A stretch of DNA of 64,000 bases from a virus. The DNA is taken from the IMG/VR virus record IMGVR_UViG_3300042691_019786, one strand, 5' to 3'. Below, piece after piece: positions 1,241 through 33,164 of this stretch (position 1 is its first letter; each line of letters starts with the position of its first letter). The notes under the pieces were generated by a model, which saw only the letters and a program-made list of their open reading frames with translations, made no database searches and was not told the DNA's origin. The translations under genes and the position numbers were made by a program.

Positions 1241-2416
1241 TTATAACTTGTAAAATTCTCTTCTTATTTTAACCAATAAAGTATTAACCAATTCTGGGTC
1301 AATCTTGTTTGGTAAGTCTGATTCGTCAAAGATTCTATCCATCTCTTTGATTTCAGCTTCTGCTGTATCAATAAGTGTATCTAAATCAACTTCACCACGT
1401 CTAATCGCTAACAATTCTTTAGCGTCTGGTCGTCTAACGATAATACCTTCACCTCTACCAATTTCTTTAGCCATTCTGATTAATCGCATACAATGCATCA
1501 TGTTTTTACCGTCAATCTTTTGACCATGTGCTTGTGTGTCAACATAACGCTGTTCATTTCTGTTAGCCAACCATTCTTCATACTCTTTGTAATCTTTACA
1601 ATGCATTGAGTAACCATCTTTGTTATAGATAATGTTACAGATAGGTTTTTCACCTTTTGGTATACTAGATAACCTTAATTGATTTGATTCAGCAGCGTTT
1701 GCACCTTCACCAGTCTTAACAAGACCTTTATATCCAAAACCCATAGGGTAACCTTCTTCTTTTCTCCAAGCTTTAGACTTTTCTCTAATATCTTCTGGAA
1801 TGTTTTCGTTAAAACAGTTATTAGCATCAACATCAAAGAAAACAGCATAAACATCTCTAGCGTTAGGTACGTTAGTTACACCGCAAAACTTTTCATCATA
1901 TGTACCGTTATTCCACACTTTCCATGGAATAGATTTTTCACCTTCAATAACATATACAAAGTCCAATACATCTTTACGAGTTACTTTATCTTTCTCCCAA
2001 TTCTGTTTTTTGTTAAGACCTCTAGCTTTTTGGATTTGCTGTACAGCATAACCAGCAAATGAGTTCTTACACCTTTTGGTAATAAAATCAGCCTTGTGGT
2101 CCAATACATATTGGAACAATGGATGTTTTGTGATGATACAATCTTCTGGTGTGTTAAGCAACTCTAAAACTGTAGGATTTGAGCTTCCCATTAGTTCTAA
2201 GAACCTTTTTAACTCCCAACCAGTATAGTCAGCATTAACATTCAACTGTTCAACATATCCAGTACCCAAGATATTATCAATAGGTAACATGTAAACGAAT
2301 TTTCGGTCTTCGTCAGACGTTGGTGTCTGAGTACCATAGGCTTGACTACCAATAATGCATTCAAAAAGAATCAATCCATTCTCTTTAAGGTAATCGTATG
2401 TAATTTTCTGTGTCAT
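1241..2416 (-). CDS. Pol-beta-superfamily nucleotidyltransferase (phage NrdC.11/YcgL-like)
   Basis: GSQAYGTQTPTSDED motif; NPTVLELL; C-terminal DGKNMMHCMRL...LLAIRRGE...LP; TACCTTTG promoter box at 2432-2439. Confidence 0.8.
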   Translation of the reverse strand: MTQKITYDYLKENGLILFECIIGSQAYGTQTPTSDEDRKFVYMLPIDNILGTGYVEQLNVNADYTGWELKRFLELMGSSNPTVLELLNTPEDCIITKHPLFQYVLDHKADFITKRCKNSFAGYAVQQIQKARGLNKKQNWEKDKVTRKDVLDFVYVIEGEKSIPWKVWNNGTYDEKFCGVTNVPNARDVYAVFFDVDANNCFNENIPEDIREKSKAWRKEEGYPMGFGYKGLVKTGEGANAAESNQLRLSSIPKGEKPICNIIYNKDGYSMHCKDYKEYEEWLANRNEQRYVDTQAHGQKIDGKNMMHCMRLIRMAKEIGRGEGIIVRRPDAKELLAIRRGEVDLDTLIDTAEAEIKEMDRIFDESDLPNKIDPELVNTLLVKIRREFYKL

Positions 2417-2516
2417 ATTCTTAATTTTTAACAAAGGTATGTATAATTTATTAATCTACCAAACATTAACCTATTTATTTTTTAAAATATTCTACTTATA
2501 TTTAAAATAAAACATT

Positions 2517-6091: not shown

Positions 6092-6138
6092 TATTTAATT
6101 TTTAAATTTATAATACAAATGTATAAATCATTTTTGAC

Positions 6139-6681
6139 TTATGCAAATTTTATGAAACCTTTTTTAATTAAATCGTGAATATATGATGAATGGTGAATGT
6201 TTTTCTCATTTGCATACCCAATTGACATGTGCATTCCGAAATATGGTCTACCCAAACCTAATTCATCTCTAATTGATTGGAGTTGTTCTCTTTCTTCATG
6301 TGGAATGTTTAACCACCAATGTTCTGAGTTGGTTCTAGGGTCTAAGTCTAAGACTATATCAATTTTTTTACCATCCCATTTTTTCTTAACTTCTTCCCAT
6401 TTAGCTTCAACTTCTTCTGCTGACAACACACCGTTTTGTGATAAATCTTTCATACTATCGTTGATAAATGAAATGTGAGCACCACGTAGCGGTTTGTTTA
6501 ATATAAGATTGTATCTTTTCTTGATGAACCATGCATAATATTCAGCAACGTCACCATCAAAAAATACCATAGCAATCTTCTTCCAAGAAGATTGGTTAGA
6601 ATGTTTCTTAGTTCGGTCCTCTGGCTCGAACCCAATAGTTCCAGATAATGTTATTCTTCCTTGCATTTTCTCTTCGTTCAT
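6139..6681 (-). CDS. 2H phosphoesterase-family protein
   Basis: two HxS motifs (AHISFI, MHMSIG) with typical spacing. Confidence 0.7.
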   Translation of the reverse strand: MNEEKMQGRITLSGTIGFEPEDRTKKHSNQSSWKKIAMVFFDGDVAEYYAWFIKKRYNLILNKPLRGAHISFINDSMKDLSQNGVLSAEEVEAKWEEVKKKWDGKKIDIVLDLDPRTNSEHWWLNIPHEEREQLQSIRDELGLGRPYFGMHMSIGYANEKNIHHSSYIHDLIKKGFIKFA

Positions 6682-7712: not shown

Positions 7713-8426
7713 TTAAGCTAATTTCAATGGTCTTAAATATTCTCTTAGGAACGCATTAACTGGTCCACCAATTTTTTCTTCCCATTGTTTATAATTCTTA
7801 GCATTTTTCTCTTCCAATTGAGATAAAGCTTTCTCTGATGGCTTGTGTCTACTCCATGGTAACGTTTCTGGTACAAAGTCTGGATATAACGTTCTGTTAA
7901 ACACCCTTTCATCAACTAAGAAAACAAACGCTGTTAATTGGTCACCCAAATCTGGTTCATGAAACTCTTGCAACAACACACCAGCTTCACGCATAGTTTG
8001 CATGTGTCTATTCAAAGTTCCCAATCTTTCTGGGTTGTTGTTTGTTGTACCACCGTTAAGAATAATAAATGTTTTATCTTTATCAGCCCATTTGTTATAT
8101 ATTTGTTGATGTGGTTTTAACCCTTCAACAGTTCTACCATAATCAACGACAGCGTGACCAAATTGGATTCCTTGTTGAATCGGGGACATGTTATACGGAA
8201 CCAACCCATACATTCTACGTTCTAAGTACATTTCACTCTTACGTGGTGTTGAATCAGCTTTAACTTTACATAACCCTAAACGTCTGTAAAACTCTTGCAC
8301 ATCAATTTTTTCTTCATAATACGATTCTTCGTAAAATGCCATAGATGTGTCCCATGATGAAATGTCTAATATTCTAACATTTGCATCTAAACACCATTCA
8401 TATCCAGTTTTTAATATCTTTTCCAT
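7713..8426 (-). CDS. Pth2-like peptidyl-tRNA hydrolase domain protein
   Basis: MYGLV..MSPIQQGIQFGHA...KTFIIL...FHEPDLGDQLTA. Confidence 0.6.
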   Translation of the reverse strand: MEKILKTGYEWCLDANVRILDISSWDTSMAFYEESYYEEKIDVQEFYRRLGLCKVKADSTPRKSEMYLERRMYGLVPYNMSPIQQGIQFGHAVVDYGRTVEGLKPHQQIYNKWADKDKTFIILNGGTTNNNPERLGTLNRHMQTMREAGVLLQEFHEPDLGDQLTAFVFLVDERVFNRTLYPDFVPETLPWSRHKPSEKALSQLEEKNAKNYKQWEEKIGGPVNAFLREYLRPLKLA

Positions 8427-9733
8427 TAATTTCCTATTTCAATTAAATGTGATACAGTACATTGTGCTGAGTTATATACTATATATTCGTTATTTCTTAG
8501 GTCAGCGCCACCTTTTGCAAACACACTATCAAATCCTTCATTATCTAACACTTTCTTAGATAACTTATAACAGCTTGAGTCATGGTGCAATATTTCTTTT
8601 TGTTTACCCAAATGCACATCAAACAATGCCAAAAACGCTTTGTTATCACCACCATGAGCCCAATAAGAACCTCTTAACGATGTGTAACCAATAGATTTTT
8701 GTGCTTTGTCAGCAAAGTAGATACCATCACCAAACATTGACCCAGTATGTACCGCACCAGATGGTCTGATAAGTAACCCAGTTTGTAAAATGTTAAACCA
8801 GTTCTCATTTCTTGACCCATGCCAGTATAGTCTACGTTTCTTAACTTCAACTTTATCCATGTGTTTATCAAATATTTTTTGTGTTTTGTTGTTAACAACC
8901 TTGAACACACGTTTCATTTGATTCACATTTGGACCCATCAATTTTTTGATAAGTTCAAGCGTTTCAGTATCATTTTCAACCTCAATAGATAATCCCATTT
9001 GGTCTAAGATAGTAACTTCAGATACTTCTTCTTTTTTACCTTCAGCTTCAGCCTCAGCAGCTTTCTTAGCAGCTTCTCTTTGTTGTTTAATCAACTCAAC
9101 TTGACCAGCCATTGTATCCAACGCTGATTGTTCGTTATCAATCAATCTTTGTGCGTTAGTCAAACTAACATCATTACTAATCTCTCTAAACAAATGGTCT
9201 TTTACGTTATCCATTCTTCTAGGGATAATTGTATAAAGTTTCAATAACATATCATTGATATGTTTGATATCTACACCAATAGCAATCAATCCACTAATGT
9301 TAGTGATAATCTCTTGTGCAGCGGTAACTTGTTGTTCCGATACAGCTTCTTGCGTTACCTTATAGTTACGTTGGATTGATTTGTTGGCAAATGACATCAA
9401 TTCATCAACCAATTTACGCACAATCTCATCTTTGATATTTGCAACTTTATTATCAACTGGTTTTGATTCATCCACAACTGGTTCAGCCAACAAATCAGTT
9501 ACATCTGTATAACCTTTTGTTTTTGATAGTTTTTGTTTCAACACACTATCCCATTTTGAACTAGGTTTATATTCAGTTGTTAAAGACTTGCCAACACGAC
9601 CATATTCACATTTGATACGGCCATCTGATAATTCTTCCATAATATAAACTTTATTACTTTGGCTGGTCAAACCATTATCAACTGATACATGTATCAGTTT
9701 TGCGTATCTTAAACCGTTCTCTTTTACTATCAT
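8426..9733 (-). CDS. WGR-domain PARP-like ADP-ribosyltransferase
   Basis: NKVY...YGRVG (WGR); LYTIIP regulatory domain; catalytic H-Y-E triad in WHGSR, GIYFA..KSIGY, NNEYIVY. Confidence 0.9.
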   Translation of the reverse strand: MIVKENGLRYAKLIHVSVDNGLTSQSNKVYIMEELSDGRIKCEYGRVGKSLTTEYKPSSKWDSVLKQKLSKTKGYTDVTDLLAEPVVDESKPVDNKVANIKDEIVRKLVDELMSFANKSIQRNYKVTQEAVSEQQVTAAQEIITNISGLIAIGVDIKHINDMLLKLYTIIPRRMDNVKDHLFREISNDVSLTNAQRLIDNEQSALDTMAGQVELIKQQREAAKKAAEAEAEGKKEEVSEVTILDQMGLSIEVENDTETLELIKKLMGPNVNQMKRVFKVVNNKTQKIFDKHMDKVEVKKRRLYWHGSRNENWFNILQTGLLIRPSGAVHTGSMFGDGIYFADKAQKSIGYTSLRGSYWAHGGDNKAFLALFDVHLGKQKEILHHDSSCYKLSKKVLDNEGFDSVFAKGGADLRNNEYIVYNSAQCTVSHLIEIGN

Positions 9734-11542: not shown

Positions 11543-11625
11543 TTTTTATTTTTTACAAATGTACGACATTTTTTTAACTTTTCCAAATTTTATAGATATT
11601 TATTAAAAAACGATAAACCAGCATT

Positions 11626-14876: not shown

Positions 14877-14942
14877 ATTTTTTTCTTTTGTTTTACAAAT
14901 GTACGAATTTAAATTGAATCCACCAAATCTAATTTAAAATTT

Positions 14943-16529: not shown

Positions 16530-17654
16530 TTACAACATTTTATATAACGTTTTATCGTCATAGTTAAACATATATTCTTCAACTGATGCTATTTTGTAAT
16601 CTTTCAACCCAAAATACAACCCAGTAAAGTTTTTTAAATCATATTTCTCACAAACTTCAAACACAGCAGCAGCAAACTTTTTTTGTTCTGGTTTTGTTAC
16701 GTTTTTTGGTTTACGCAACTTTAATTCATCCCATACAACATTCAATTTTGCAACCAACGCATCGTAAGACTCTTTAAGACGATTTAATTCTTCTGTTCTT
16801 TCTGGGAAAGTAGCAGCAAATTCTTCTATCTCGTTAGTTTTTACAATAGTTAATATGTTGTGTTCAGCAGTTTTACCTTTCAAGTGGTGTACCGCAACAT
16901 ATGCTGGATTTTTCACTTTAACACGATTGTCATTACCATCACGTACAACATAACCTTCTTCAGACCATGGCATACCTTCAAATGTTTTCAACAAGTGACC
17001 AACATTTTTTGCGTTTAAATCAAAAGATTTTACCAATGGTATATCCAATGATACCGCAGTCATTTCCAAGTCTCTCCCAGACAACTCAACAAGTGTTTTT
17101 CTGTTTCTAACAGCCAACAAAGTCGCTGATGATTCACCATGTGGTTTTACTACTATGTTATATGGTGTAGTTAACTCAAACACATAGATATAATCATAAT
17201 TTAACAAACATGCATTGAATGTGTATTTGTTGTTAACAGTATCCCAAAACAATTCGTTAAATTTAGTACCATTTTTGTTGTTAACTTCACCTTCACCGTT
17301 TGCAGTACCAGTAGTACCAGCATACCATGTCATGTCGTGCCAATCATAATACACTTGTATCATAGTACCATCCAATTTTTCAAGTACTTGTGCAGTATTC
17401 CAATCTATTTTAGCAGCGTTACCTTCTTCAGAGTTGAAGAATTTTCTAAACGCCAAAGACATTACGTTCCAAGTACCTTTTTCAAGGATGATTCCACGAC
17501 AATCTTGCATCTCTGGCAATGACATAAGTGTTGGTGACACTAATTGGTCATACTTCAAGAGTATTTTGTGTTCATACTCTCTAGTTTTTAAAGAAAAGTC
17601 TTTGATTGTTTTTTCTAAACCGTGTGTTCTTAAATATTTTTGTATAGCTAACAT
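16530..17654 (-). CDS. T4 Rnl1-like RNA ligase
   Basis: CRGIIL, KFFN, EKLDGT (motif I), FELTTPYNIVV, EEGYVV, RVKVK. Confidence 0.85.
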   Translation of the reverse strand: MLAIQKYLRTHGLEKTIKDFSLKTREYEHKILLKYDQLVSPTLMSLPEMQDCRGIILEKGTWNVMSLAFRKFFNSEEGNAAKIDWNTAQVLEKLDGTMIQVYYDWHDMTWYAGTTGTANGEGEVNNKNGTKFNELFWDTVNNKYTFNACLLNYDYIYVFELTTPYNIVVKPHGESSATLLAVRNRKTLVELSGRDLEMTAVSLDIPLVKSFDLNAKNVGHLLKTFEGMPWSEEGYVVRDGNDNRVKVKNPAYVAVHHLKGKTAEHNILTIVKTNEIEEFAATFPERTEELNRLKESYDALVAKLNVVWDELKLRKPKNVTKPEQKKFAAAVFEVCEKYDLKNFTGLYFGLKDYKIASVEEYMFNYDDKTLYKML

Positions 17655-21224: not shown

Positions 21225-21326
21225 CTCACCCACTAGGATTCGAACCTAGGACCTAACGGTTAACACTCCTTGTATGAACTTACTTATCATACCTAGCCGT
21301 TTGCTCTACCACTGAGCTATGGGTGA
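21225..21326 (-). tRNA. tRNA-Asn(GTT) with a 30-nt insertion in the anticodon loop
   Basis: AACGG-CT-[30 nt]-GTT-AA-CCGTT; all other arms canonical. Confidence 0.85.
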
Positions 21327-25112: not shown

Positions 25113-26243
25113 TCAAAAAATAAATATATCTAGATAAAGTTTTTTAAAATTATCAGTTTCTAGTCTTTGTATTTCTTTACCTAATTCTGGTCCTTGTTTT
25201 AACCCCATCTTTGTCATTAGGTCTGAACCATTAACCGTTAATTTAAATAATAAAAATGTATCTATAATCTTTACATCAATACCACTTAATTGAGCAAATC
25301 TAGTTATTTGTTCTGCTGTTACACCAGATGTCTTTTCAGCTTTTTTAAGCGTTACAGCTGTATCAATCGACAAATTCAATAGACTAATCAAAAATGTAAT
25401 AGCTCTTATTTCATCAATTGAGTATTTTAATTTGTTCAATTGTTTTGTTAATAAATCAACTTTATTATTCTTTAACAACATTGCTAAAACAATAATTATA
25501 TCATTATCTTCAATGAAATTTTTATTAACATTAACATCTTTAAAAACCCAATCAAATAAATTGTATTTGTCAATCATTTTTAAAAACGATTTTACAGATT
25601 TTGCTGATTTGATACCTTTCAAAAACTCATCTCTGATTCTTTCACCAGATATACCTTCCAAACTAGCATCTTTTTGCAATGCAGCGTCAACTGATGGGTC
25701 TAATTCACTACCAAATCTACCAGCAAATCTAATTGCTCTTAATATACGTAATCTATCTTCACCAAATCTATCTTCAGCTGCACCTACAGTCCTTACAACA
25801 CTGTTTTTAAGGTCTTCTATACCATCAACCAAATCAACAACTTCTGACGTGTCTATATCGTAAAATAATGCGTTGATTGTTAAGTCACGTCTTTTAACGT
25901 CACCTACTATATCTGTAAAACTAACACCATCTGGTCTTCTACCGCTAGATAAGTCTTCCCTAAAAGTTGCGATTTCGTATTCACCCATATCAGTAAAGAC
26001 GTTGATAACACCAAATGCTTTACCAGTTGGTAAAGTTCTAAAACCACCTTTAGCCATTATGTCTTCCACTTGGTCTGGGATAGCATCGGTTGCCAAATCG
26101 TAATCTTTAGGTGTTTTACCTAACAACGCATCACGCACTGCACCACCTACAACATATAGGTTAAAACCATTTTGCTTAAAAACATCTTTTATTTGTAAAA
26201 TGTCTTTTGGTATTGGCATATCAAATATAATTCTCTTTTCCAT
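25113..26243 (-). CDS. cca: CCA-adding tRNA nucleotidyltransferase
   Basis: VGGAVRD..KDYDLAT, RRDLTINA, EDRLRILRAIRF, ERIRDE; the tRNAs here lack encoded CCA. Confidence 0.85.
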   Translation of the reverse strand: MEKRIIFDMPIPKDILQIKDVFKQNGFNLYVVGGAVRDALLGKTPKDYDLATDAIPDQVEDIMAKGGFRTLPTGKAFGVINVFTDMGEYEIATFREDLSSGRRPDGVSFTDIVGDVKRRDLTINALFYDIDTSEVVDLVDGIEDLKNSVVRTVGAAEDRFGEDRLRILRAIRFAGRFGSELDPSVDAALQKDASLEGISGERIRDEFLKGIKSAKSVKSFLKMIDKYNLFDWVFKDVNVNKNFIEDNDIIIVLAMLLKNNKVDLLTKQLNKLKYSIDEIRAITFLISLLNLSIDTAVTLKKAEKTSGVTAEQITRFAQLSGIDVKIIDTFLLFKLTVNGSDLMTKMGLKQGPELGKEIQRLETDNFKKLYLDIFIF

Positions 26244-26280
26244 AGTACAAATGTAATAATAAAATTTTAATAAAACAAAA

Positions 26281-26781: not shown

Positions 26782-27201
26782 TTAATTATTCGTTTTGTCA
26801 ACAAAATTTAAAATTAATTTATAAGCGTCAATAATTTTATTCATATATTCAACATTTTTAACATCATCTATCGTCAAATTACCATGTAAAAGACCAAAAA
26901 ATTTATTTATAGTTTTAAAGTGTTTTATTGCAATAACATTTTCTTTTTCATAAATTGATGAAGGAAAGAATATGTATTTCCAAACACTTTTTAAATCATA
27001 ATATTCATTTCTAAATACTTTTCTTACTTTTGATTCAACAGTGTTATCACTTTTTATAGTTATTTTAGTAACATATAATTCACCATCAACTTCAAATGGT
27101 ATTATTTTGAATAATTCACTTTTTTTATTTTTGAATAAGTGTAATTCTGTTTTAGTTAAATAATTTTTAACTTCTAATTGTTTTTGCTCTACTGTTTTCA
27201 T
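26782..27201 (-). CDS. hypothetical protein
   Basis: ORF. Confidence 0.5.
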   Translation of the reverse strand: MKTVEQKQLEVKNYLTKTELHLFKNKKSELFKIIPFEVDGELYVTKITIKSDNTVESKVRKVFRNEYYDLKSVWKYIFFPSSIYEKENVIAIKHFKTINKFFGLLHGNLTIDDVKNVEYMNKIIDAYKLILNFVDKTNN

Positions 27202-27279: not shown

Positions 27280-27309
27280 TTAAGGTGGAGCTCTGTATAT
27301 CTACATCAT
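27280..27309 (-). other. minigene M-M-(TAG)-I-Y-R-A-P-P-stop
   Basis: ATG ATG TAG ATA TAC AGA GCT CCA CCT TAA, 11 nt after the Pth2 stop. Confidence 0.6.
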
Positions 27310-27320
27310 AGTATTAAAAT

Positions 27321-27671
27321 TTAAACGTTGTTATTTATCTCCCTTCCCAATAATGGAAAAGAACTAGTTAGTCTTCTGCTAGAATCAGAAGGTTCAAATG
27401 CTATTGCTGTTATTTCATTGTTGATGTTTGGCTCTCTAAATATTGTGTACTTGATTCCTCTAGAATCAGCTTTCTCTGATAGTCTAACTAATTCTTCTTC
27501 GTTAGCGACTGTCAATAATGCCAGATAATTTGATTTTGATTGCCATTCTGTCGCTTCTATAGGATGAGCGTGTTGGAAATCTATGGCAGCATGTGCCGAT
27601 TGTACCGCTTGTGTCGGTAATGATAAGTCGCGTCTTGTGACAACTCTTAATTTTTCGTTAACCTATTTCAT
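27321..27671 (-). CDS. Pth2-like peptidyl-tRNA hydrolase with an in-frame TAG at codon 3
   Basis: ATG AAA TAG GTT AAC GAA AAA TTA...; readthrough gives MK*VNEKLRVVTRRDLSLPTQAVQSAHAAIDF...FREPNINNEITAIA (116 aa); the ORF track shows only the 3' part. Confidence 0.8.
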
Positions 27672-27723
27672 AACTTTTTTTTAATAAATATATCAATAAT
27701 AATGCCAAAGTAAACATTATTTG

Positions 27724-27794
27724 TGGTCTTAGAGGGAATCGAACCCTCACTATCGGTTTTAGAGACCGTTACGCTGCCGTTACATCATAAGACC
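27724..27794 (-). tRNA. amber suppressor tRNA (anticodon CTA)
   Basis: GGTCTTA/TAAGACC acceptor; ACGGT-CT-CTA-AA-ACCGA; GAGGG-TTCGATT-CCCTC; own TACATTTG box at 27808-27815. Confidence 0.88.
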
Positions 27795-27830
27795 AAATCT
27801 TATAGTACAAATGTACAAAAGATTTTTTAA

Positions 27831-29450
27831 TTATGCAAATTTATTCTTTAATAATTTTTTTATTAATTTTTTATTCTCAGTAACATTATGTTTTGATTTT
27901 CTTCTAACAAATTCATCGTATTCGCTTTGTGTGATAAGACCATTTTTAAGGTTTTGTGCCAAATTTTCTAAATCTATGTTTTTATCCCTTTCTTCTCGTT
28001 CTCTTTCCTTTTCTTCGAACTCATCTAAATCAGTATCCAACACCCATACGTCACCGTAATCATTCGTATTTACTTTTGTTGCGTCATTTGGGTGTGCAAA
28101 CATTGCCTCACCATAATGTGCTCTGTATAATTCAACAGCGTCAGATTTTAATATTGTTTTTTCATCATATGTTTCTACAGTATCATCACTAAAAGCATAT
28201 GGTATTTCATAAATGTCGTCATCTAACGTTACATAGTCGTCATCAGTTGTTATATATTGATTTTCACCATAGTAATTTGGTTCTAATTCTATGGTATCAT
28301 CTAATTTAGCATATTCGCCTTCGTATCTACCATAGGTTAATTCTACGTGTACTGAATCATCATCATATTTATATATCCATTCATGGTCATATGTTTTAAT
28401 ACAGTCATCAATTAAGTATACACCACCATCTATTGATACTATATCATCTTGGTGTGCGTAACCTTCTACATACCCATTTGGTGTTCTATATGATAAATAA
28501 AACGCTTCATCTTCATCTACAGTCTCACCTTCATGGTCACCATATTCAATATAAACCCCAGCCTCTGAATGACCACCATGAGAGTCTTGTAATCGAATCC
28601 AACCTTGTTCTCCACTAGTCGCTAATGTGCTAGTTTCTGGATTATAATACTCAAATGTATCCATAAATGGGTATGTGTCATATTCACCACCATTCTCAAG
28701 CGTTACTGTCGAATTAGCTCTATTACTAAAACCATGTTCTTCAGCATAATTGTTGAAGAATGTGTTAAATTCTTTATTTGTTGTATAAATCCTATCCATA
28801 AAGTACTGGTCGTTATCCATATGCCAAATAAGCGCTCTACCTCTAACTTTTTTTGTTTCTGGATTTAATAATACAAGACATTTAACTTCATTAGGGTTAT
28901 CAGTATAAATTTTAAGATATTCTTGCGCTCTACTAAATCTCATACATGAACCCATAGTTTCACCATCTTCATAATTACCACAGTGATATGCTTTTAGAAT
29001 ATCATCACCTTCAACCATTTTTAATTGTGATGTATCAGCTGTTTTAAGATGACCAATAAGGTCTTCTATTTCATAGTCTTTAATATCTTTTATGTTACTA
29101 CCTAGATAATTGAGAAGTTTATTAATCTTAAACAATCTTTCTTTAGTATTACCATTAATATCAGTATATCCTAAAGTGATTAATTTTTCATTTTTTTTGT
29201 CATAATCAACATATTCGACATTAGCGTCATCTTTTATTTTATCACTATTTAAAAACGCTAATAATTTTTTAGATAAAGGTGTGTTAATGATATTTAATTT
29301 TTTAGTTAAATTATCACCAACTTTGATTTCTTTTTCCAATATTAAAAATAATTTATTTAAATTAACAATTTTTTGCCTTTCAATTATTAATTTATCATTT
29401 TTTATATTTTTTATAGATTCTTTAAATAATTTTTTAATTAACTGTTTCAT
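27831..29450 (-). CDS. large hypothetical protein
   Basis: GSCMR...GRALIW...MDRIY...PFMDTF core followed by acidic repeats. Confidence 0.65.
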   Translation of the reverse strand: MKQLIKKLFKESIKNIKNDKLIIERQKIVNLNKLFLILEKEIKVGDNLTKKLNIINTPLSKKLLAFLNSDKIKDDANVEYVDYDKKNEKLITLGYTDINGNTKERLFKINKLLNYLGSNIKDIKDYEIEDLIGHLKTADTSQLKMVEGDDILKAYHCGNYEDGETMGSCMRFSRAQEYLKIYTDNPNEVKCLVLLNPETKKVRGRALIWHMDNDQYFMDRIYTTNKEFNTFFNNYAEEHGFSNRANSTVTLENGGEYDTYPFMDTFEYYNPETSTLATSGEQGWIRLQDSHGGHSEAGVYIEYGDHEGETVDEDEAFYLSYRTPNGYVEGYAHQDDIVSIDGGVYLIDDCIKTYDHEWIYKYDDDSVHVELTYGRYEGEYAKLDDTIELEPNYYGENQYITTDDDYVTLDDDIYEIPYAFSDDTVETYDEKTILKSDAVELYRAHYGEAMFAHPNDATKVNTNDYGDVWVLDTDLDEFEEKEREREERDKNIDLENLAQNLKNGLITQSEYDEFVRRKSKHNVTENKKLIKKLLKNKFA

Positions 29451-32688: not shown

Positions 32689-32804
32689 AGTTTTGTTTTT
32701 AATATAAATATGCTAAAAAATAAAAAACCCCCAGTAAAGCGACTTACTGAGGGTAATAATTTCATTACTCACGGATATTTGTTTGAGAATGAATCTGTTA
32801 AGAG

Positions 32805-33164
32805 TGGAGTATACGGGAATCGAACCCGTGTGTTGAATATTCTTCAATGCTTTCTACATGTTTAGGACATAGTTTTCAAACTATCCGAAATTTCGCTACC
32901 TCTTTTTACCGTGTAATTTAAGCTTCACACCAGATGGATTACCATTATCTTAGTGGATTACCACCATCGGTAGGTTACTACCATATGCAATATTAGGCTA
33001 CTGCAAGCTCTCCGTTAGAAACGAATGTCGCTTCATCAAGGAAATTTTCTGATACGATTAAATCGTTGTCAATTCTTGTTCTAATAGACAGTTTAAAGTG
33101 CTTCCAATCTAGCACTACATGCTTACTACCTACGACTATACCCAGTCAATACCTTAAATACCCC
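32805..33164 (-). ncRNA. ssrA: tmRNA
   Basis: GGGGTAT/ATACTCC-A acceptor with G3.U70; TTGAC; T arm; tag ORF DNDLIVSENFLDEATFVSNGELAVA* at 32993-33070. Confidence 0.9.

What the first reader, a model, noticed from the sequence alone, without database searches (positions are those of the whole stretch)
27321..27815. Amber-suppressor tRNA directly upstream of a Pth2 gene gated by a TAG at codon 3
Seen in sequence: a well-formed tRNA with a CTA anticodon (27724-27794) and its own promoter box. It is followed 52 nt later by ATG AAA TAG and then 113 open codons with Pth2-like motifs (KLRVVTRRDL, QAVQSAHA, FREP...TAIA). The rest of the window is not amber-recoded, and TAG is a real stop elsewhere. 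Established: two-codon minigenes cause peptidyl-tRNA drop-off that Pth must recycle. Inference: this is a self-contained genetic-code switch. The hydrolase is made only when the suppressor outcompetes RF1; otherwise the mRNA is an MK minigene. It could sense release-factor or tRNA status, or time gene expression.
Basis: partly seen in the sequence, partly recalled or inferred. Interest (0 to 1): 0.9.

Follow-up and report, generated by a model that had tools for sequence, protein, structure and literature searches.

The report
Amber-gated phage Pth2 with suppressor tRNA
A large lake-water phage that uses the normal genetic code has a small tRNA-hydrolase-like gene whose third codon is the stop codon UAG, right behind its own UAG-reading tRNA. 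About 90 related phage loci, some from lab-grown phages, keep the same layout, so the enzyme is probably made only when that tRNA overrides the stop.

Summary
On the minus strand, a tRNA(CUA) lies at 27723-27794. It is followed 51 nt later by ATG AAA TAG GTT and 112 more codons of a PTH2-fold protein.

- **No other start.** No ATG, GTG or TTG occurs before codon 53. The conserved residues and the first fold elements lie upstream of that codon.
- **Standard code.** The window, and a complete 368-kb relative, use the standard code. TAG ends ordinary genes in both.
- **Conservation.** In 89 related loci (71 distinct sequences, down to 30% identity) a short ATG leader of 1-7 codons ends in an invariant TAG, and a purine follows the TAG in 70 of 71. 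These include Acinetobacter phage ME3 and Tenacibaculum phage pT24.
- **Linked tRNA.** A same-strand tRNA(CUA) lies within 3 kb in 58 of 69 loci with full flanks.
- **Not an assembly error.** Independent lake assemblies keep the TAG.

The dependence on amber suppression is therefore well supported by comparison, but nothing is experimental. The inserted residue, the enzyme's activity and the purpose of the gate are unknown.

I found no paper that describes this. This scan has already noted the same cassette on other DNA, in at least 97 genomes.

The parts
27808..27839 (-). Bacteroidota-type promoter motif TTTG-N20-TACATTTG, ending 13 nt before the tRNA
   Evidence: Pattern search: 15 matches in the window against 3.25 expected, 13 of them on the coding strand. 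A sigma-70 scan finds nothing here. It is a consensus match only.
27723..27794 (-). Elongator-type amber-suppressor tRNA, anticodon CUA, G1-C72, discriminator A73, no encoded CCA
   Evidence: ARAGORN and Rfam RF00005 at 60.1 bits. In 62 distinct homologues all 20 predicted cloverleaf pairs show compensatory changes, and the anticodon (CTA) is invariant within a near-invariant loop, consensus CTCTAAA.
27672..27722 (-). 51-nt spacer with a small hairpin just after the tRNA 3' end and an A-rich tract before the ATG; no Shine-Dalgarno motif
   Evidence: Sequence. The fold is not better than shuffles, z -0.89. Its length varies between strains through indels at 27677-27689.
27666..27671 (-). Leader: ATG AAA (Met-Lys)
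   Evidence: Relatives have leaders of 1-7 sense codons, always opening with ATG.
27663..27665 (-). In-frame UAG gate at codon 3, followed by GTT
   Evidence: The TAG is invariant in 89 related loci (71 distinct), with a purine next in 70 of 71. It is unchanged in independent assemblies.
27324..27662 (-). PTH2-fold protein, 113 residues after the gate; stop TAA at 27321-27323
   Evidence: PF01981 at 38.1 bits. AlphaFold model with pLDDT 93. The best PDB matches are all Pth2, with TM 0.72-0.79 for the top solved crystal structures. Invariant residues Q18, Q21, H24, F29, W40 and S44-L47 lie upstream of the first canonical start.
27280..27309 (-). Second amber-gated mini-ORF ATG ATG TAG ATA TAC AGA GCT CCA CCT TAA (MM*IYRAPP*), 11 nt after the Pth2 stop
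   Evidence: Sequence. Mini-ORFs of the same type (MN*IKAPP*, MK*IIKVPP*, MEH*IIRPP*, MK*IYRPP* and others) follow Pth2 in many relatives. It was studied by another agent of this scan.
26782..27201 (-). 139-aa ORF of unknown function, next gene on the same strand and probably in the same transcription unit
   Evidence: ORF list, no Pfam match. The next promoter motif on this strand is at 26248-26279. Co-transcription is inferred.
25113..26243 (-). CCA-adding enzyme (tRNA nucleotidyltransferase). This is context: the tRNA(CUA) gene encodes no CCA end.
   Evidence: PF01743, PF12627 and PF13735. tRNA 3' end.

Best explanation
This is a two-part cassette kept by many large phages that use the standard code: a phage amber-suppressor tRNA and a Pth2-fold gene that opens with a very short leader ending in UAG.

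Ribosomes start at the leader AUG. At codon 3 either RF1 releases a dipeptide, or the phage tRNA(CUA) inserts an as yet unknown residue and the 116-residue protein is made. Output of the enzyme is therefore tied to how well the phage's own suppressor is made, matured (CCA added), charged, and able to compete with RF1.

Shown by sequence and comparison: the gate, the lack of any other start, the linked tRNA, and the standard code elsewhere.

Inferred:
- The protein hydrolyses peptidyl- or N-blocked aminoacyl-tRNA.
- The coupling matches its amount to suppressor activity, for example to recycle tRNAs (including the suppressor itself) that drop off as short peptidyl-tRNAs from early-UAG leaders.
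- The purine-U context after UAG favours suppression.
For: 1. Only the ATG at 27671 can give a whole PTH2 domain. The domain starts at residue 7, and the next canonical start is codon 53. Invariant residues and strand 1 plus helices 1-2 lie before that start.
2. Of 99 loci surveyed, 89 (71 distinct sequences, 30-87% identity) have an ATG leader, then TAG, with no canonical start before the domain. The stop is always TAG, although TAA is about 80% of stops in these genomes.
3. A tRNA(CUA) lies on the same strand within the flanks in 58 of 69 fully flanked gated loci. It accounts for 86 of the 221 tRNAs found near these genes.
4. These are real tRNAs: all 20 predicted pairs show compensatory changes.
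5. The code is standard. A complete 368.5-kb relative has coding density 0.843 under code 11, against 0.867 with TAG as sense and 0.869 with TGA as sense (the control). TAG ends 37 of 475 ORFs. It has one tRNA(CUA) among 62 tRNAs, and Pth2 is the only convincing long gated ORF.
6. In the seven gated loci that carry a Shine-Dalgarno motif, it sits 5-8 nt before the leader ATG and 14-20 nt from the codon after the TAG.
7. Cultured phages share the layout. ME3 has ATG ACT TAG ATT, with an annotated tRNA of anticodon CTA 0.4 kb upstream. pT24 has ATG AAA TAG ATA, with an annotated tRNA-Sup 2.5 kb upstream.
8. Independent strains keep the TAG.
9. The fold is Pth2.
Against: - Nothing is experimental. 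Expression, charging and identity of the tRNA are unknown, and its G1-C72/A73 does not fit the E. coli Gln identity set (from memory).
- A suppressor would also read the phage's and the host's genuine TAG stops, though in the complete relative read-through adds a median of 4 codons.
- In Bxz1- and Myrna-like mycobacteriophages the codon after the TAG is GTG, with a Shine-Dalgarno motif spaced for it. There the gene may simply start after the TAG.
- Some relatives have an ordinary ATG start yet still keep a suppressor tRNA next door (L097, L098, L127, Lak phages). The enzyme-tRNA link is therefore wider than the gate, and the gate alone does not explain it.
- The lysine of the archaeal GKGK motif is not conserved.
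Confidence: 0.72

Rival explanations
1. Stop-restart. The leader is translated and terminated at UAG, and the ribosome reinitiates on the adjacent codon (AUU, AUA, GUG, GUU or GUA). Pth2 is then made without suppression, and the tRNA(CUA) lies nearby for another reason.
For: The codons after the TAG are one-step neighbours of ATG or GTG: ATT 50, GTA 10, GTT 6, ATA 2. AUU and AUA are known weak starts (from memory). In mycobacteriophages the codon is GTG, is annotated as the start, and has a well-spaced Shine-Dalgarno motif. Ungated relatives start about where the gated ones have this codon.
Against: GTT, GTA, CTT and GGC are not start codons. Exclusive use of TAG, never TAA or TGA, in genomes where TAA is about 80% of stops is unexplained without the tRNA(CUA). 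The same TAG-AT(T/A) context occurs in the unrelated PP* mini-ORFs.
Confidence: 0.12
2. The enzyme and the suppressor tRNA are primarily an enzyme-substrate or enzyme-client pair. For example, the hydrolase acts on acylated or peptidyl-tRNA(CUA), perhaps as a brake on suppression. The early UAG is a secondary feedback feature added in some lineages.
For: Ungated homologues still sit beside a suppressor tRNA. In L127 the tRNA(CUA) overlaps the gene's 3' end. It lies 87 nt away in L098 and 374 nt away in L097. Lak phages have tRNA(UUA) about 0.5-0.6 kb upstream. The active-site region differs from archaeal Pth2.
Against: There is no direct evidence on substrate. Pth enzymes as known do not deacylate free aminoacyl-tRNA (from memory). 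This reading is compatible with the best explanation rather than exclusive of it.
Confidence: 0.1
3. The phage is partly amber-recoded (code 15) in late genes outside this window, and the Pth2 TAG is just one of many recoded codons.
For: Recoded phages with suppressor tRNAs are known (10.1101/2021.08.26.457843). The 735-kb relative LR756501 has a second in-frame TAG inside its Pth2 gene. The window holds no structural genes.
Against: A complete relative with the same gate shows no code-15 signal, uses TAG as a stop in 37 ORFs, and has an open terminase frame. No other long ORF in the 64-kb window needs TAG read-through. Cultured carriers are annotated in code 11 with intact structural genes.
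Confidence: 0.03
4. The gene is broken, or the TAG is an assembly error.
For: None beyond the stop itself.
Against: The TAG is kept in 71 distinct sequences and in independent assemblies. The protein sequence downstream is under strong constraint.
Confidence: 0.01

Closest known systems
Stop-codon-recoded phages with phage-encoded suppressor tRNAs (TAG read as Gln, 'code 15': crAss-like, Lak and others; Borges et al. preprint 10.1101/2021.08.26.457843; PMC9523058)
   Same: A phage-encoded tRNA(CUA) decodes in-frame UAG in phage genes inside a standard-code host. Suppression is proposed to control when genes are translated.
   Different: Here the genome is standard code and TAG is an ordinary stop. 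Only one long gene, plus a mini-ORF, carries a programmed UAG. The UAG is always within the first 2-8 codons, and its target is a translation-related enzyme beside the tRNA. Neither the Borges preprint nor the jumbo-phage survey I read mentions a hydrolase.
prfB (RF2) autoregulation through an early in-frame UGA
   Same: An early in-frame stop codon in a translation-factor gene makes output depend on the competition between termination and recoding.
   Different: prfB uses a +1 frameshift, and the stop is read by its own product. Here the frame is unchanged, the recoding agent is a dedicated tRNA, and the product is not a release factor.
Lambda bar minigenes and other two- to eight-codon minigenes that cause peptidyl-tRNA drop-off needing Pth (PMC2490762, PMC10192219)
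   Same: A very short ORF (AUG plus 0-6 sense codons, then a stop) at the 5' end of a phage transcript. The pathway involved is peptidyl-tRNA recycling.
   Different: The leader continues in frame into a conserved gene. Its length and last codon vary, so no specific tRNA is sequestered. Toxicity or drop-off has not been shown.
Archaeal and eukaryotic Pth2 (PDB 2zv3, 3erj, 1xty, 1q7s)
   Same: The same fold (TM 0.72-0.79) and the shared Q..HA helix motif.
   Different: 19-28% identity. The lysine of the archaeal GKGK motif before that helix is absent. The phage clade has its own invariant set: Q18, Q21, H24, E77, P78, N82, T85.

Membership tests
Pfam PF01981 PTH2 (peptidyl-tRNA hydrolase type 2) | Profile score above the curated cut-off | tested here: met
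   38.1 bits against 23, E 1.9e-9, residues 7-98 on profile positions 2-103 of 115.
Pfam PF01981 PTH2 | Pth2 alpha/beta fold | tested here: met
   Model pLDDT 93, pTM 0.86. The 14 best PDB matches are all Pth2 proteins, with TM 0.72-0.79 for the top crystal structures and E down to 5.5e-8.
Pfam PF01981 PTH2 | Active-site residues of archaeal Pth2: the Lys before the AQ..HA helix and the acidic residue of the D-A-G loop (residue roles recalled from memory) | tested here: inconclusive
   Alignments to 1rzw and 2zv3 put T19 or a gap opposite the GKGK lysines, and that column varies in the phage clade (T, A, Y, I, S, Q). E77 aligns with the acidic residue and is invariant. Q21 and H24 are kept.
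Pfam PF01981 PTH2 | Hydrolysis of peptidyl-tRNA | not testable with these tools
   Needs an enzyme assay.
Elongator amber-suppressor tRNA | Cloverleaf with anticodon CUA, U33 and a purine at position 37 | tested here: met
   The loop is CUCUAAA; the anticodon is invariant and the rest of the loop near-invariant across 62 homologues.
Elongator amber-suppressor tRNA | Stems kept by compensatory change across relatives | tested here: met
   20 of 20 predicted pairs have double changes.
Elongator amber-suppressor tRNA | Not an initiator (no 1:72 mismatch, no three G-C pairs closing the anticodon stem) | tested here: met
   G1-C72; the anticodon stem is C-G, G-C, G-C, U-A with an A-A mismatch at 27:43.
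Elongator amber-suppressor tRNA | Made, CCA-tailed and aminoacylated; decodes UAG in vivo | not testable with these tools
   Only one 225-nt contig from an RNA library, inside the Pth2 gene. This is weak and could be DNA.
Code-15 (TAG-reassigned) phage | Many genes with internal TAG; coding density rises when TAG is read as sense; TAG not used as a stop | tested here: not met
   Window: TAG ends 9 of 73 long ORFs and no other long ORF needs TAG. Complete relative: density 0.843 against 0.867, against the TGA control at 0.869, and 37 TAG stops.
Pyrrolysine system (the ARAGORN label 'tRNA-Pyl') | tRNA-Pyl architecture: very small D loop, 3-nt variable loop, no GG or T-psi-C motifs (from memory) | tested here: not met
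   The tRNA has GG in the D loop, a TTCGATT T loop and a 4-5 nt variable loop. The label only reflects the anticodon. pylS and pylBCD were not searched.
prfB-type autoregulatory recoding | Early in-frame stop bypassed by a +1 frameshift and read by the gene's own product | tested here: not met
   ATG and the downstream ORF are in the same frame, and the product is not a release factor. It resembles prfB only in its logic.

The most novel reading that the evidence does not exclude
The Pth2-like enzyme and the suppressor tRNA form a co-inherited functional pair with feedback. The early UAG makes enzyme output report suppressor activity, and the enzyme in turn acts on the suppressor, either recycling peptidyl-tRNA(CUA) or limiting its acylated form. 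This would set a controlled level of UAG read-through in infected cells. That read-through would also drive amber-gated arrest leaders such as MM*IYRAPP*. Such a cassette would give the 'orphan' suppressor tRNAs of standard-code jumbo phages a job, and could be the seed from which full TAG reassignment evolved.
Probability: 0.25. Interest if true: 0.9.

Novelty: new variant of a known kind. Interest (0 to 1): 0.8.

Why it matters
- **A natural target for phage suppressor tRNAs.** In standard-code genomes these tRNAs have had no known target. Here the target is one conserved gene beside the tRNA.
- **A compact translational switch.** It would be built from a tRNA and a stop codon, and it is widespread. 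It occurs in lake, soil and marine jumbo phages and in cultured phages of Acinetobacter and Tenacibaculum, with a related layout in mycobacteriophages. This makes it directly testable.
- **Annotation errors.** ME3_195 and BPT24_235 start too far downstream. The tRNA(CUA) of Catera is labelled Arg and that of Myrna is labelled Ser. Gene callers either truncate the gene or read the TAG as Gln.
- **A possible intermediate state.** It could sit between the standard code and TAG reassignment in phages.

Tried and rejected
- **Megablast of the locus against the phage collection:** no match.
- **Whole genome for the window:** none is held, so the code test used a complete relative.
- **RNA structure around the gate:** no better than shuffles, z -0.89. 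There is no evidence for a read-through stimulator.
- **Sigma-70 promoter before the tRNA:** none found.
- **Identity of the tRNA from similarity to the 61 other tRNAs of the complete relative:** the best match is 72%, to unrelated acceptors, so this is uninformative.
- **Do genuine TAG stops avoid the purine-T context?** 0 of 9 in the window carry it. In the complete relative it is 4 of 37, the same as for TAA and TGA stops, so there is no specific avoidance.
- **Ochre version of the gate in Lak phages:** Lak-B has ATG AAT ATC TAA ATA, but Lak-A and Lak-C start at a plain ATG. Stop type changing with the anticodon was not confirmed here.
- **Other long amber-gated genes:** none recurs in the flanks or in the complete relative.
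- **RF-1-domain ORF seen near the cassette in relatives:** absent from this window.
- **Short contigs of ungated relatives:** mostly too short to judge.
- **RNA evidence:** one small contig from one lake RNA library inside the gene. It does not show transcription, start or strand.
- **Literature searches for Pth2 with amber, suppressor and phage, and for Bxz1 with suppressor tRNA:** no paper found.

Full report
**What is in the window**

The feature lies on the minus strand. ARAGORN and Rfam both call a tRNA with anticodon CUA at 27723-27794 (60.1 bits against 29). It is an ordinary elongator cloverleaf with G1-C72, A73, loop CUCUAAA, a TTCGATT T loop and no encoded CCA.

Fifty-one bases downstream the sequence reads ATG AAA TAG GTT AAC GAA AAA TTA. 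It stays open for 113 codons to TAA at 27323-27321.

The product matches Pfam PTH2 above the curated cut-off, and the domain begins at residue 7. A model built with 15 relatives has pLDDT 93. Its 14 best PDB matches are all archaeal or human Pth2, with TM 0.72-0.79 for the top crystal structures.

No ATG, GTG or TTG occurs in frame until codon 53. The family's invariant residues Q18, Q21, H24, F29, W40 and S44-L47 lie before that point, as do strand 1 and helices 1-2. Only the ATG at 27671 can therefore give a whole protein, and only if the UAG is decoded.

**Surroundings and genetic code**

The window has 30% G+C and almost all genes are on the minus strand.
- Among 73 long minus-strand ORFs the stops are TAA 58, TAG 9 and TGA 6. 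No other long ORF needs TAG read-through.
- A Bacteroidota-type promoter motif (TTTG-N20-TACATTTG) ends 13 nt before the tRNA. Fifteen such motifs occur in the window against 3.25 expected, mostly just upstream of genes. This suggests a Bacteroidota host and fits the absence of a Shine-Dalgarno motif.
- The next motif on this strand is at 26248-26279. The tRNA, the Pth2-like gene, a nine-codon mini-ORF (MM*IYRAPP*, 27309-27280), a 139-aa ORF and an FKBP gene may therefore form one transcription unit. This is inferred.
- A CCA-adding enzyme follows at 25113-26243.

**Related sequences**

Two scans of IMG/VR, one scan of genome contigs, and tblastn in the phage collection gave 98 further loci. 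A script walked upstream from the Pth2 match in each locus.
- In 89 loci (71 distinct sequences, 30-87% identity) the first in-frame stop is TAG. It is preceded by an ATG leader of 1-7 sense codons (M, MK, MT, MN, MS, MTH, MKN, MKDT, MKET, MKKPFYY and others). No canonical start lies between the TAG and the domain.
- The codon before the TAG varies widely.
- The codon after it is ATT (50), GTA (10), GTT (6), ATA (2), ATC, CTT or GGC. That is a purine in 70 of 71 sequences.
- The distance from this Ile/Val codon to the conserved K-L of the domain varies from 1 to 13 codons. The codon is therefore tied to the TAG rather than to the fold.
- The same TAG-AT(T/A) context occurs in the unrelated PP* mini-ORFs that follow Pth2 in many loci.
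- Database proteins that show Q at this place are code-15 gene calls of a TAG.

**The tRNA link**

A tRNA(CUA) lies on the same strand within the flanks in 58 of 69 gated loci that have at least 2.4 kb on both sides. It is directly upstream (46-200 nt) or 0.2-2.9 kb downstream. CUA is the commonest anticodon among all 221 tRNAs near these genes, with 86.

The 62 distinct tRNA(CUA) sequences keep the anticodon invariant within a near-invariant loop, while all 20 predicted stem pairs show compensatory changes. Some loci carry two different tRNA(CUA) genes, one of them with U1-A72 and G73, which is Gln-like by E. coli rules recalled from memory. The window's tRNA (G1-C72, A73) does not fit that set, so the inserted residue is open.

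**Cultured carriers**

- Acinetobacter phage ME3 has ATG ACT TAG ATT, with an annotated 'tRNA-OTHER anticodon CTA' 0.4 kb upstream. Its CDS ME3_195 is annotated from an internal GTG.
- Tenacibaculum phage pT24 has ATG AAA TAG ATA, with an annotated tRNA-Sup 2.5 kb upstream.
- Huge-phage records LR756500, LR756501, LR745206 and LR756511 also carry the gate.
- Mycobacteriophages are ambiguous. Bixzunavirus members read GAAGGC ATG TAG GTG and Myrnavirus members read GGAGGC GTG TAG GTG. In both, a tRNA(CUA) lies 0.15-0.35 kb downstream. However, the Shine-Dalgarno motif is spaced for the GTG after the TAG, which is the annotated start.

**Is the phage recoded?**

No whole genome is held for the window. 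I therefore took the complete 368.5-kb relative that carries MK*I (66% identity).
- Coding density is 0.843 under code 11. It is 0.867 with TAG as sense and 0.869 with TGA as sense, the control.
- TAG ends 37 of 475 ORFs, and the terminase frame is open.
- It has 62 tRNAs, of which one is tRNA(CUA), beside Pth2.
- Pth2 is the only convincing long ORF with an early TAG gate.
- Read-through of its genuine TAG stops would add a median of 4 codons.

**Where translation starts**

Seven gated loci carry a Shine-Dalgarno motif. In all of them it sits 5-8 nt before the leader ATG and 14-20 nt from the codon after the TAG. Ribosomes are therefore directed to the leader.

**Raw data**

The stretch occurs in lake, freshwater and river metagenomes from 14 studies. 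Contigs from three independent runs keep CTA at 27663-27665 on the plus strand amid many other differences. One variant has 27662 C>T, which gives TAG ATT. The tRNA-ATG spacer has indels. One small contig from an RNA library lies inside the gene, which is weak evidence.

**Interpretation**

The best reading is programmed amber suppression. The enzyme is made only when the phage's own tRNA(CUA) reads the early UAG in competition with RF1.

The purpose is inferred. Three observations bear on it.
- The leader is not a conserved MK minigene.
- Ungated relatives still keep a suppressor tRNA next door: L097, L098 and L127 with CUA, and Lak phages with UUA. The enzyme-tRNA partnership is therefore wider than the gate.
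- The lysine of the archaeal GKGK motif is missing, so the substrate may differ from that of classical Pth2.

A plausible model has two steps. Early-UAG leaders generate short peptidyl-tRNAs, including peptidyl-tRNA(CUA), that drop off the ribosome. Early drop-off is documented in E. coli (PMC10192219, PMC2490762). The enzyme would recycle them, and the gate would scale its amount to suppressor activity.

The main rival is stop-restart on the codon after the TAG. It fits the mycobacteriophage layout, and it fits the fact that these codons are one-step neighbours of ATG or GTG. It does not explain why the stop is always TAG, or the linked tRNA.

**Novelty**

I found no paper that links a phage Pth2 gene, an early amber codon and a suppressor tRNA. 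The library searched is limited to open-access papers and preprints.

This scan has already reported the same cassette on other DNA: 156 notes in at least 97 genomes. Those notes are not independent evidence.

This report adds the following:
- the context tied to the TAG;
- the Shine-Dalgarno placement;
- the ungated but tRNA-linked relatives;
- the Bacteroidota-type promoter;
- the code test on a complete relative;
- the strain-level check of the TAG.

Noticed in passing
window 21225-21326 (-): Rfam calls a 102-nt tRNA (58.4 bits) that ARAGORN does not list. It is probably a tRNA with an insertion, next to an intact tRNA-Asn.
   Followed up: no
window 32802-33164 (-): Phage-encoded tmRNA (Rfam 61.1 bits; ARAGORN tag peptide ending ...GELAVA) in the same tRNA-rich region.
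   Followed up: no
window, 15 sites such as 6116-6147, 11556-11587, 14896-14927, 26248-26279, 40407-40438 (-): The Bacteroidota-type promoter consensus TTTG-N19-21-TAnnTTTG is strongly enriched: 15 against 3.25 expected, 13 on the coding strand. This points to a Bacteroidota host.
   Followed up: partly
L015:2184, L042 (- strand), L063:1715, L075:2253, L077:2230: In several relatives the Pth2 reading frame breaks off after the conserved QAVQ and runs into an HNH-endonuclease-like ORF (...IYYENHHILPKS...). This is either an intron or homing-endonuclease insertion, or a duplicated N-terminal fragment. These fragments also carry the early TAG.
   Followed up: no
L001:1142-1663; G002:225660-225980; LR756501:358528-358854: A 173-184-aa ORF with only the RF-1 (GGQ) domain lies 1.4-3 kb from the tRNA(CUA)/Pth2 cassette in close relatives, and is also present elsewhere in LR756501. 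It looks like an ArfB-like or truncated release factor. There is no counterpart in this window.
   Followed up: partly
L054, L130, L131, L132 (Prevotella phages Lak-B5, A2, B7, C1): All carry a tRNA with anticodon UUA about 0.5-0.6 kb upstream of an ungated Pth2 homologue.
   Followed up: partly
L055 (ME3), L050/L126 (pT24), L103 (Catera), L049 (Myrna): Annotation problems in public records. ME3_195 and BPT24_235 start downstream of the true N-terminus. The tRNA(CUA) is labelled tRNA-Arg in Catera and tRNA-Ser in Myrna.
   Followed up: yes
L053:1937-1963 (Xanthomonas phage Xoo-sp13): TAGGAG, then 8 nt, then ATG AAG AAG TAG AAC lies just before the annotated ATG of the long fusion protein whose C-terminus is the Pth2 domain. 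This may be a gate in front of a fused form.
   Followed up: no
window 8426-9733, 45738-47501, 16530-17654, 1241-2434 (-): The window also encodes a PARP-domain protein, a GAF-PAS-HATPase sensor-kinase-like protein, a T4-type RNA ligase 1 and an RlaP-type nucleotidyltransferase.
   Followed up: no
G002:269749-269823 and 284848-284920: In the complete relative, tRNAs with Leu anticodons (UAA, CAA) are only 73-75 nt long and lack the long variable arm expected of bacterial tRNA-Leu.
   Followed up: no
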